A stretch of 40,653 nt of DNA from a virus. Its lineage: Duplodnaviria; Caudoviricetes. The stretch is from positions 1-40,653 of IMG/VR virus record IMGVR_UViG_3300005805_000176; one strand, given 5' to 3'. Positions 1,504-12,599 of this stretch are shown piece after piece. Below the pieces are notes generated by a model. The model worked only from the letters and a program-made list of their open reading frames with translations, had not been told where the DNA came from and made no database searches. Position 1 is the first letter of the stretch. The number at the start of each line of letters is the position of its first letter. The translations under genes were made by a program, and so were the position numbers.

Positions 1504-1544
1504 TTCTTTGTCGCAATTATACCATGCTTTATTGGTTGTATTGA

Positions 1545-1679
1545 AGCGTGGACAGGGAATCGCACCCCGTTAGATTGGTATACTATCCCAACGTATAACC
1601 CCGTTAGGCAACCCCACGCTGCATAACAGACCGTAGGTTTATCGTACAGGTTATCCCAATCTAGTCGCTAGACCCACGC
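1545..1679 (-). ncRNA. tRNA-like structured RNA (acceptor stem + T-arm, with a ~90-nt multi-helix insert)
   Basis: GCGTGGG/TCCACGC acceptor stem, CGGGG-TGCGATT-CCCTG T-arm, TAGATTGG/CCAATCTA helix enclosing further stems; lies 36 nt downstream of tRNA-Met. Confidence 0.6.
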
Positions 1680-1714
1680 AATTTACCACCGCAACTCAAA
1701 CGTCAGCCTCCGAA

Positions 1715-1790
1715 TAGGGGAAGTTGGATTCGAACCAACGATCTTCGGCTTATGAGGCCGACGAGAACGACCGAACTTCTCTATTCCCCG
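1715..1790 (-). tRNA. tRNA-Met(CAT), initiator-like
   Basis: Cloverleaf CGGGGAA..GAGA/TCTC..TCGGC-CTCATAA-GCCGA..GTTGG-TTCGAAT-CCAAC-TTCCCCT-A; C1xU72 mismatch and A11:U24. Confidence 0.9.
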
Positions 1791-1945
1791 ACATTATACC
1801 ATTCGTTAGAATCATCGTATATGTTCAACTCTGTATCTTCATCGTCATAGACTTCCTCTATCATATCTTCCTCATATTCTCTATAAGGATCGGCATAGTA
1901 GTCACGGTCGCCCATGACGAATTCGTTGTAAAGAAAGTTGCTCAT
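1781..1945 (-). CDS. Small very acidic protein (54 aa), possible DNA mimic
   Basis: Manual translation MSNFLYNEF...YEEDMIEEVYDDEDTELNIYDDSNEWYNVGE; ATG follows a consensus -10 after a 7-nt gap. Confidence 0.6.
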   Translation of the reverse strand: MSNFLYNEFVMGDRDYYADPYREYEEDMIEEVYDDEDTELNIYDDSNEWYNVGE

Positions 1946-1952
1946 ATATCTT

Positions 1953-1981
1953 ATTATACTTAGTCAGTTGTCTTTTGTCAA
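1953..1981 (-). promoter_or_regulatory. Consensus sigma70 promoter TTGACA-17-TATAAT
   Basis: Perfect -35/-10 hexamers with 17-bp spacing. Confidence 0.8.
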
Positions 1982-3400: not shown

Positions 3401-3478
3401 TAAGTATATACACTATAAGGACTTACGACAAATCTCGCCCGCCGCCGCCGCCCTAAACCCTTGTGTAGCAAGGACTTA
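3401..3478. repeat. 78-bp double-palindrome element, copy 2
   Basis: TAAGTATAT-acactat-AAGGACTTA, 28-bp spacer with GCCCGCC, TAAACCCTT-gtgtagc-AAGGACTTA. Confidence 0.9.
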
Positions 3479-3507
3479 GAGCGGTTTTGGCGAAGAAAGA
3501 AAGAAGA

Positions 3508-4285: not shown

Positions 4286-4508
4286 TTTTTTCCAGCATCT
4301 CCGCAACTTCAGCAAAGTCAAGCCATCCTACCACATCATCCGCGATTGGCGTATCGTAGCAGATTCCGCCGTCCTTAAGGATAGCAACCTCAAACAGTCC
4401 ACTTTTGCCACCATACGTGAATGGCGTAGATACAACGCTGGCACCATAGCCGTTGTCAAATCGATACGTCTTGTGATATCCGTCAAGCATCATCTTCTCC
4501 TCTTTCAC
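4269..4508 (-). CDS. Conserved phage hypothetical protein (FxNGYGASVV family)
   Basis: YRFDNGYGASVV...GLFEVA...YDTPI.DDV.GW motif; true start may be a downstream ATG near 4493. Confidence 0.75.
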   Translation of the reverse strand: MKEEKMMLDGYHKTYRFDNGYGASVVSTPFTYGGKSGLFEVAILKDGGICYDTPIADDVVGWLDFAEVAEMLEKIKKLP

Positions 4509-4511
4509 TCT

Positions 4512-4552
4512 AGTCTATCCTGTATATCGGCAGGCGTCAAGCGAAATCTTTA
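4512..4552 (-). promoter_or_regulatory. Overlapping sigma70 (TTGACG-17-TAGACT) and sigma28-like (TAAAG-16-GCCGATA) promoter
   Basis: Read directly. Confidence 0.7.
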
Positions 4553-4571
4553 GAAAATTTTTTGGTGAACG

Positions 4572-4649
4572 TAAGTGCTTGATAGATAAAGACTTAGAGC
4601 AAATTTTGCCCGCCCGCCGCGTCGTAAGTCCTTACGTGGCAAGGCTTTG
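4572..4649. repeat. 78-bp double-palindrome element, copy 3
   Basis: TAAGTGCTT-gatagat-AAAGACTTA, 28-bp spacer with GCCCGCC, TAAGTCCTT-acgtggc-AAGGCTTTG. Confidence 0.9.
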
Positions 4650-12122: not shown

Positions 12123-12345
12123 TTTATCTAATTTCTATGTGGAGCTTAAAAAATTCACACTAAGAGAATATAGTATACCTTTCGCCCTAATATTTGTAGA
12201 GGCGGCAGATCCAGACGAAGCCTGCTATTTAATATTAGCTAAATTATGTAAATTACTAATAGATCAAGATCCATCAATAGAAACTAGATTACTATGTCGC
12301 AGAATTAAGCGGGAACTTAGAATAGAGAAAATTACAGGATTATGA
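12097..12345 (+). CDS. Hypothetical protein
   Basis: 82-aa ORF within the operon. Confidence 0.65.
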   Translation: MRNFRLTVDLSNFYVELKKFTLREYSIPFALIFVEAADPDEACYLILAKLCKLLIDQDPSIETRLLCRRIKRELRIEKITGL

Positions 12346-12599
12346 AGCGCGATTATAACGACGTATATCTTAAAACAATAAAGGAAGTCTTTAAAAGAGA
12401 TAAATTTAAGTGTCAAATGCCCAACTGTAACTCTAGAATAGGTCTACAGGCTCACCACATTAAGAAATGGTCAACTGCACATGCACTACGTTATGATGTA
12501 TCTAATTGTATTACATTATGTAGAAAGTGCCATAAATCTATCCACGGTAAAGAACACCATTACGAAAAACTATTTTATAGTATCATAAATGGAAAATAA
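12342..12599 (+). CDS. HNH endonuclease
   Basis: RD.FKCQ..C...LQAHHI...NCITLCRKCH..IH. Confidence 0.9.
   Translation: MKRDYNDVYLKTIKEVFKRDKFKCQMPNCNSRIGLQAHHIKKWSTAHALRYDVSNCITLCRKCHKSIHGKEHHYEKLFYSIINGK

What the first reader, a model, noticed from the sequence alone, without database searches (positions are those of the whole stretch)
1545..1679. 135-nt tRNA-like RNA with no anticodon arm and a multi-helix insert
Seen (minus strand): a 7-bp acceptor stem GCGTGGG/TCCACGC, a T-arm CGGGG-TGCGATT-CCCTG and a 9-nt linker ending CGAC in place of a D-arm. An 8-bp helix TAGATTGG/CCAATCTA then encloses ATAAC/GTTAT, CTGTA/TACGG and CAGCGT/ACGTTG stems. The 3' end reads T-TCA. It lies directly downstream of tRNA-Met. 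Known: this topology recalls the tRNA-like domain of tmRNA, but it is far shorter and lacks G3:U70 and a tag ORF. Inference: a tRNA mimic (decoy for anticodon nucleases, SmpB or an uncharged-tRNA sensor, or a Y-RNA-like molecule), or an unrecognised ncRNA class.
Basis: partly seen in the sequence, partly recalled or inferred. Interest (0 to 1): 0.7.

Follow-up and report, generated by a model that had tools for sequence, protein, structure and literature searches.

The report
Phage glycine-tRNA frame with pseudoknot cargo
A group of large uncultured phages keeps a 135-base RNA gene whose frame matches their own glycine tRNA but carries a conserved, knotted 78-base domain inside the anticodon; it is predicted not to read codons and likely works as a tRNA-shaped decoy or tether for a host protein not yet identified.

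Summary
It has no Rfam or ARAGORN hit. I parsed 92 distinct full copies from related phages, and 26 of 30 loci fetched only through a neighbouring protein carry it. The frame matches the clade's own tRNA-Gly at 23 of 26 positions (159 other tRNAs: mean 9.9, maximum 17), with the cargo between anticodon bases 34 and 35. The anticodon halves now covary as a helix, so it is not a decoding tRNA. It is not tmRNA (8 of 8 relatives carry a separate one) or a Y RNA. Best guess: a processed two-part decoy or tether (0.4); expression and partner are unshown. Closest in kind is T4 RNAC. The scan noted what appears to be this family before on other DNA (e1-5881142).

The parts
1545..1679 (-). The RNA gene, first acceptor base to discriminator U73 (135 nt); CCA is not encoded here, as in the clade's true tRNAs
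   Evidence: (122 bits with model R1)
1674..1679 (-). Acceptor stem, 5' strand (6 bp); first five pairs identical to the clade's tRNA-Gly
1664..1673 (-). Reduced D arm: 3-bp hairpin with a 4-nt loop (short-D frame)
1656..1663 (-). 8-bp stem P3, 5' strand; 1663-1657 correspond to tRNA positions 28-34
1579..1656 (-). 78-nt cargo lying between anticodon positions 34 and 35
1649..1654 (-). Pseudoknot 5' strand, pairs with 1595-1600
   Evidence: 99.8% paired, 3 of 6 pairs with changes on both sides
1644..1648 (-). Helix b 5' strand, pairs with 1579-1583, closes the three-way junction
1610..1639 (-). Arm c: conserved base, freely varying hairpin (19-38 nt variable part in the 92 copies)
1587..1608 (-). 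Hairpin d (7 bp); its 8-nt loop holds the pseudoknot 3' strand at 1595-1600
1571..1578 (-). 8-bp stem P3, 3' strand; corresponds to tRNA positions 35-42
1552..1570 (-). T arm, 6-bp stem, 7-nt loop with G at position 55
1545..1551 (-). Acceptor 3' strand and discriminator U73
1536..1544 (-). 3' trailer with the A/C-rich spacer that separates RNAs in the relatives' arrays (likely processing site)
1680..1713 (-). Leader between tRNA-Met and the RNA; its first 24-25 nt recur in front of true tRNA genes in relatives
1714..1791 (-). tRNA-Met(CAT), likely co-transcribed
1953..1981 (-). Perfect sigma-70-type promoter match (12 of 12); no terminator-like site between it and the RNA

Best explanation
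This is a conserved phage non-coding RNA gene, likely derived from a glycine tRNA by insertion of a 78-nt pseudoknotted domain into the anticodon, that is predicted to be cut from an early transcript by host tRNA-processing enzymes and likely acts as a two-part decoy or tether rather than as a decoding tRNA. Shown: the fold, the strand, the match of the frame to tRNA-Gly, retention across the clade, and independent swapping of frame and cargo. Inferred: (1) transcription from the host-type promoter at 1981-1953; (2) maturation by RNase P and 3' trimming, perhaps with CCA addition, using the 12-bp acceptor plus T stack; (3) an L-shape closed by D-loop/T-loop contacts; (4) the conserved acceptor end occupies a host protein that reads tRNA acceptor stems (a defence toxin of the toxSAS or acetyltransferase kind, or a synthetase), while the rigid cargo binds a second partner or bars the RNA from the ribosome. 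Step 4 is the weakest and the partner is unidentified.
For: Fold: 99.1% of 2852 cells paired, 14 of 31 pairs with double changes, slid controls 30-38%; RNAalifold independently recovers acceptor, D, P3, d and part of T; 288 G.U against 15 A.C cells fix the strand, and lengths fall in all three classes mod 3. Helices b plus d always sum to 12 bp (6+6 in 63, 5+7 in 29 of 92). Divergent copies rewrite b and d and keep the pseudoknot. Ancestry: 23 of 26 frame positions match the clade's tRNA-Gly, 18 match T4 tRNA-Gly, 159 other tRNAs give 9.9 +/- 2.6 (maximum 17), and tRNA-Gly is the best match for 92 of 92 copies. D and T arms travel together in 25 of 25 short-D and 88 of 88 long-D copies although four cargo types occur with both frames. 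Acceptor positions 2-5 are 97-100% conserved in sequence on the 5' strand, more than the outer T stem (77-80%). 26 of 30 loci sampled through a neighbouring protein carry it. 33 of 91 copies have a promoter-like site within 70 nt, 5 of them 8 nt before the first base. [quoted passage not shown]
Against: No expression, ends or partner are shown. The acceptor end is not uniform: the full bacterial Gly set (G1-C72, C2-G71, G3-C70, U73; PMC9976931 table) is in 22 of 92 copies (20 of 22 short-D), the first pair is broken in 14 of 92, and 29 of 92 encode no CCA in either register. The RNA has U4-A69, whereas FaRel2 needs G4-C69. A decoy does not by itself explain why the cargo is so conserved. Long-D copies lack a canonical T loop, so RNase P recognition is uncertain. 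The D/T kissing helix in long-D copies (84 of 88 with 4 bp or more, letter-shuffled mean 39) shows no covariation (partner-swapped mean 82.7). One divergent copy (L307) has b plus d of 11 bp, read by eye. Most copies were collected with motif patterns, so those motifs are invariant by selection.
Confidence: 0.4

Rival explanations
1. The tRNA frame is only a carrier for processing and stability, like the engineered tRNA scaffold; the cargo is a free-standing aptamer or ribozyme that binds a metabolite or protein or catalyses a reaction.
For: Three-way junction plus pseudoknot with fixed geometry and conserved junction bases; frame and cargo recombine freely; a second tRNA-bodied family with a different anticodon cargo lies in the same arrays; one relative carries a pistol ribozyme elsewhere.
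Against: The acceptor sequence is more conserved than shape alone needs; no ribozyme or riboswitch family scores at E up to 10 in the window or E up to 5 in ten loci.
Confidence: 0.27
2. Window-type copies are charged with glycine by the host synthetase and donate it to a non-ribosomal reaction, like staphylococcal non-proteogenic tRNA-Gly.
For: 20 of 22 short-D copies have the full Gly acceptor set; an acceptor-T minihelix of tRNA-Gly is chargeable (PMC9908026, passage); staphylococcal non-proteogenic tRNA-Gly genes have the same TGC triplet in the T loop (PMC7826273, passages).
Against: Only 2 of 70 long-D copies keep the set; C35 and C36 are paired; 15 of 154 true phage tRNAs also have a TGC T loop; FemAB and Acetyltransf_6 families were found in 0 of 5 relatives.
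Confidence: 0.1
3. It is a split tRNA-Gly whose 78-nt insert is an intron of an unknown kind that is removed to give a minimal tRNA.
For: The insert lies exactly between positions 34 and 35; 20 of 22 short-D copies keep Y32, U33, C35, C36 and R37.
Against: Only 23 of 70 long-D copies keep these bases; pairs 33:37 and 34:36 change on both sides in 15 and 31 of 92 copies; no internal deletion in any of 92 copies gave an ARAGORN tRNA; the D arm lacks the GG and there is no variable loop; no bulge-helix-bulge or conserved terminal G is seen.
Confidence: 0.08
4. It is a shortened tmRNA-like RNA that traps SmpB or joins ribosome rescue.
For: Same general layout as the tmRNA tRNA-like domain with a long helix in the anticodon position and a pseudoknot beyond it; the phages do invest in trans-translation.
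Against: Separate full tmRNA in 8 of 8 complete relatives, with G3.U70, A73 and an open D loop in the one read; G3.U70 in 4 of 92 copies; the D region is a paired hairpin; no tmRNA model hit.
Confidence: 0.05
5. It is an antisense regulator of phage mRNAs (C4-like) or a decaying tRNA gene.
For: C4-like tRNA-shaped antisense RNAs were proposed for other phages in earlier scan notes.
Against: The only long conserved loop covaries with an internal partner; its complement occurs in 1 of 134 leaders of a complete relative; covariation and 26 of 30 retention exclude decay.
Confidence: 0.04

Closest known systems
Phage T4 RNAC (species 1 RNA, 139 nt) and RNAD of the T4 tRNA cluster
   Same: Same size, same setting beside tRNA genes, a T arm next to the 3' end, extra helices in place of an anticodon, function unknown (PMC9697503 and PMC12685909, passages).
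   Different: No homology (2.5 bits, E 3.2 with model R1); RNAC folds into long simple hairpins with a canonical T loop and is classed as late, whereas this RNA has a D hairpin, a pseudoknotted junction and lies behind a host-type promoter.
tRNA-Gly(UCC) of the same phage clade (L283:11613-11684)
   Same: 23 of 26 positions in acceptor, anticodon arm and discriminator.
   Different: 6+6 instead of 7+5 stack, D arm reduced to a 3-4-bp hairpin, no variable loop, anticodon split by 78 nt and paired. The intact gene is in 1 of 12 near-complete holders as a full-length match.
Non-proteogenic tRNA-Gly of staphylococci (NP1-NP3)
   Same: tRNA-Gly paralogue diverted from translation, TGC in the T loop, altered D and T arms (PMC7826273, passages).
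   Different: Those keep a cloverleaf and anticodon and serve Fem transferases; no Fem-type gene was found in 5 relatives.
tmRNA (RF00023) tRNA-like domain
   Same: Acceptor plus T stack with a long helix and a pseudoknot in the anticodon position.
   Different: No alanine identity, no tag frame, paired D arm, 135 nt, and a separate tmRNA in the same genomes.
Bacterial Y RNA (YrlA)
   Same: Two-module design with a tRNA-like part; one YrlA is an RNase P and CCA-enzyme substrate (PMC4201824, passages).
   Different: Y RNAs are encoded beside Ro60 and carry a Ro-binding module; TROVE was found in 0 of 5 relatives.
GOLLD and ROOL RNAs
   Same: Pseudoknotted phage RNAs of unknown function near tRNA islands (PMC12286853, passages).
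   Different: Several times larger, no tRNA frame; no Rfam hit here.

Membership tests
tRNA (RF00005) | Cloverleaf recognised by ARAGORN or the Rfam model | tested here: not met
tRNA (RF00005) | Open 7-nt anticodon loop with U33 and purine 37 | tested here: not met
   Loop halves are split by 78 nt and covary as a helix
tRNA (RF00005) | 12-bp acceptor plus T stack | tested here: met
   6+6 bp
tRNA-Gly identity | G1-C72, C2-G71, G3-C70, U73 | tested here: met
   Met in the window and 20 of 22 short-D copies, 22 of 92 overall (identity table)
tRNA-Gly identity | Actual glycylation | not testable with these tools
   Needs a charging assay
tmRNA (RF00023) | G3.U70 and A73 | tested here: not met
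   G3.U70 in 4 of 92; N73 is C 54, U 27, G 11
tmRNA (RF00023) | Tag reading frame and model match | tested here: not met
   separate tmRNA in 8 of 8 relatives
Y RNA (YrlA) | Encoded beside a Ro60/TROVE gene | tested here: not met
   0 of 5 complete relatives
Intron-containing tRNA | Removal of the insert restores a recognisable tRNA | tested here: not met
   0 of 92 copies; a differently placed deletion series gave 1 tRNA-Tyr call of 729 for the window and none for two other copies
Known small ribozymes and riboswitches | Rfam model match | tested here: not met
Known small ribozymes and riboswitches | Self-cleavage or ligand binding | not testable with these tools
   Needs in vitro assay
T4 RNAC-type stable RNAs of phage tRNA clusters | Non-decoding RNA with a T arm in a phage tRNA region | tested here: met
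T4 RNAC-type stable RNAs of phage tRNA clusters | Sequence or structure homology to RNAC or RNAD | tested here: not met
T4 RNAC-type stable RNAs of phage tRNA clusters | Accumulates as a discrete stable RNA | tested here: inconclusive
   Only assembled contigs of relatives were available

The most novel reading that the evidence does not exclude
A natural tRNA-scaffold system: these phages have opened a glycine tRNA at the anticodon to display a new pseudoknotted ribozyme or aptamer, and they swap frames and cargoes as separate modules within polycistronic arrays of several undescribed RNAs that together blunt tRNA-directed host defence.
Probability: 0.25. Interest if true: 0.85.

Novelty: new variant of a known kind. 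Interest (0 to 1): 0.64.

Why it matters
Stable non-decoding RNAs in phage tRNA clusters, such as T4 RNAC and RNAD, are still described as of unknown function. This family gives a case with a covariation-defined fold, a traceable tRNA-Gly parent, an exact insertion point and natural frame/cargo recombinants, so acceptor, elbow and cargo can be tested separately. It shows how a tRNA can be turned into a new structured RNA, and the 78-nt pseudoknotted junction matches no catalogued motif and is a candidate aptamer or ribozyme.

Tried and rejected
rRNA mimicry of the element or of its four-way-junction neighbour: best blastn E 0.32-0.6 against E. coli rRNA, profile search best E 2; dropped. Isolated phages: no match of the RNA in 50,697 records (one search matched only the tRNA-Met part among the 20 rows listed). 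Cellular copies: 1 of 44 pattern hits in GTDB genomes was real, on a 141-kb contig of an unclassified bin that may be phage DNA; 0 of 151 genomes of the phylum of a planctomycete bin. Host: a promoter palindrome occurred in 1 of 61 planctomycete-phylum genomes (four sites, in the centre genome) and 3 of 61 of a control phylum; unresolved. Expression: RNA-library contigs of relatives cover parts of the RNA in 3 of 4 runs laid and in the same three plus one probably-DNA run, but one contig runs through the -35 box and no silent control was laid; no evidence either way. Partner genes: SmpB, TROVE, CCA enzyme, reverse transcriptase, Acetyltransf_6 and FemAB each 0 of 5; Pfam scan of 132 of 208 open frames of one complete relative named no RNA ligase or tRNA enzyme. 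Antisense: the top leader match (5 of 134) comes from the paired T stem and is a Shine-Dalgarno complement. The sigma-factor homologue search named no host. The nhmmer run printed nothing and was repeated for the neighbour RNA.

Full report
Setting. The window is a 40,653-base fragment of a phage (virus record, 26% complete) with terminase, head, tail and sigma-factor genes. The finding lies on the minus strand among small genes. ARAGORN and Rfam find only tRNA-Met and tRNA-Lys in the window, and a permissive Rfam scan of 1450-1800 gives nothing over the element. A 12-of-12 sigma-70-type promoter at 1981-1953 points through a 54-codon frame and tRNA-Met into the element with no terminator-like site between. 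The 34-nt spacer before it begins with a stretch that precedes true tRNA genes in relatives.

Relatives. Motif scans of IMG/VR and metagenomes gave 191 parsed matches, 92 distinct full copies; 8 matches failed the parser, most of them cut by contig ends. A looser parser over all later loci gave 113 distinct copies. Because these were caught by motifs, I drew a second sample through the protein at 989-1303: 26 of 30 loci carry the RNA upstream of that gene (some loci are near-identical), and 4 of 4 complete records among ten searched whole. Searched genomes hold one copy; some hold two in tandem. No isolated phage matches. One of 44 pattern hits in GTDB genomes is real, and none of 151 genomes of a planctomycete bin's phylum has it. 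The host is unresolved.

Fold. Pair counts give a 6-bp acceptor, a 3-4-bp D hairpin, an 8-bp stem P3 and a 6-bp T stem meeting at a four-way junction. Inside P3 is a three-way junction of helix b, a variable arm c and hairpin d, and the loop of d pairs with the six bases just inside P3. On the MAFFT alignment the 31 pairs that are in register are 99.1% paired, with double changes at 14; slid controls give 30-38%. The pseudoknot has double changes at three of six pairs, in different sets of copies. RNAalifold recovers acceptor, D, P3, d and part of T unaided. Helices b and d sum to 12 bp in 92 of 92; divergent copies rewrite both and keep the pseudoknot, and one of them (L307) has 11 bp. G.U cells outnumber A.C cells 288 to 15, and lengths ignore reading frame. 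Kin share changes, so cell counts overstate independent events, and R-scape was not available.

Ancestry. Among 154 distinct tRNAs of the fetched phage loci only tRNA-Gly has the element's first five acceptor pairs and U73. Scored over positions 1-5, 28-42 and 68-73, the window's frame matches that tRNA-Gly at 23 of 26, T4 tRNA-Gly at 18, and 159 other tRNAs at 9.9 +/- 2.6 (maximum 17); tRNA-Gly is the best match for all 92 copies. I set up this comparison after seeing the acceptor match, and the panel has only three tRNA-Gly. The cargo sits between G34 and C35. The anticodon halves now behave as a helix: pairs 33:37 and 34:36 change on both sides in 15 and 31 copies, the tRNA hallmarks survive in 20 of 22 short-D but 23 of 70 long-D copies, and no deletion restores an ARAGORN tRNA. 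The intact tRNA-Gly gene is a full-length match in 1 of 12 near-complete holders.

Modularity. A short D hairpin always goes with a 7-8-nt UGCG T loop (25 of 25) and a long D hairpin with the other T loop (88 of 88), while four cargo types occur with both frames. This suggests that D and T arms touch and that frame and cargo are separate modules. In long-D copies the two loops can pair over 4 bp or more in 84 of 88, above letter shuffles (39) but not above partner swaps (82.7). In relatives the gene is one unit of promoter-led arrays of other uncatalogued RNAs separated by A/C-rich spacers; these include a four-way-junction RNA (31 variants) and a second tRNA-bodied RNA with its own anticodon cargo (7 variants).

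Mechanism. Processing as a pre-tRNA is inferred from the 12-bp stack, the leader and the lack of encoded CCA in the clade's true tRNAs; RNase P and the CCA enzyme act largely regardless of sequence (PMC9976931, passage). The acceptor sequence is held more tightly than the outer T stem, which points to a protein reading it. [quoted passage not shown] Against this, FaRel2 needs G4-C69 and the RNA has U4-A69, the 3' end varies, and the cargo's conservation needs its own partner. I therefore put a two-part decoy or tether at 0.4 and a pure scaffold for an aptamer or ribozyme at 0.27. That phage tRNAs counter tRNA-directed defence is argued in PMC10264068 (abstract only). Expression is not shown.

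Comparison and novelty. It is not tmRNA, not a Y RNA and not homologous to T4 RNAC, which is the closest in kind. Ten literature searches listed no paper that describes this family. The catalogue of viral candidate RNAs in PMC10690425 (passages) could hold it: a motif search of its supplements found nothing, but three of the six held files were not searched and three more files were unreadable. Papers seen as passages: PMC4201824, PMC10690425, PMC12286853, PMC9693318, PMC9697503, PMC12685909, PMC9908026, PMC9976931, PMC7826273 and the bioRxiv paper above. The labels bulge-helix-bulge, group I intron, C4 RNA and the tRNA position numbers are recalled.

Noticed in passing
L001:1185-1355 (-), L005, L114, L177 and others: A four-way-junction RNA of 119-237 nt follows the element in about half of the copies (31 variants parsed); no Rfam hit; a by-eye likeness to the 23S peptidyl-transferase region was not supported.
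   Followed up: partly
L003:1328-1440 (+), L268:4987-5095 (+), L304:548-654 (-): Second tRNA-bodied RNA with canonical D and T arms and a multi-hairpin insert in place of the anticodon loop; 7 variants.
   Followed up: partly
L001:1020-1102 (-), L031:901-983 (+): tRNA-like genes with abnormal anticodon loops at the end of the arrays; 3 variants.
   Followed up: no
window 1689-1713 (-); L203:5806-5830; L202:2304-2326: A conserved 24-25-nt spacer recurs just upstream of different tRNA genes and, in the window, of the element.
   Followed up: partly
window about 760-830 and 3410-3485: Paired palindromes upstream of promoter-like sites punctuate the early region; covered by several earlier scan notes.
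   Followed up: partly
G001-G008 (L196-L200): All 8 complete relatives tested carry a full tmRNA, with tags such as GNTQLALAA, but no SmpB in the 5 tested.
   Followed up: partly
L202:5736-5798 (-): Pistol ribozyme near a tRNA-Arg gene in relative G001.
   Followed up: no
L202:2463-2550, L205:4515-4603 and others: The clade often carries tRNA-Ser with an ACT anticodon (10 distinct) and tRNA-Ile with TAT (16 distinct), both unusual for bacteria as I recall.
   Followed up: no
L001:1363-1466 (-), L204:12046-12190 and 12335-12450 (+), L271 about 4500-4600: Further spacer-delimited structured RNAs of other kinds in the same arrays, none in Rfam.
   Followed up: no
L232 (141-kb contig in an unclassified bacterial bin): Only GTDB hit of the RNA; probably a binned phage contig.
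   Followed up: no
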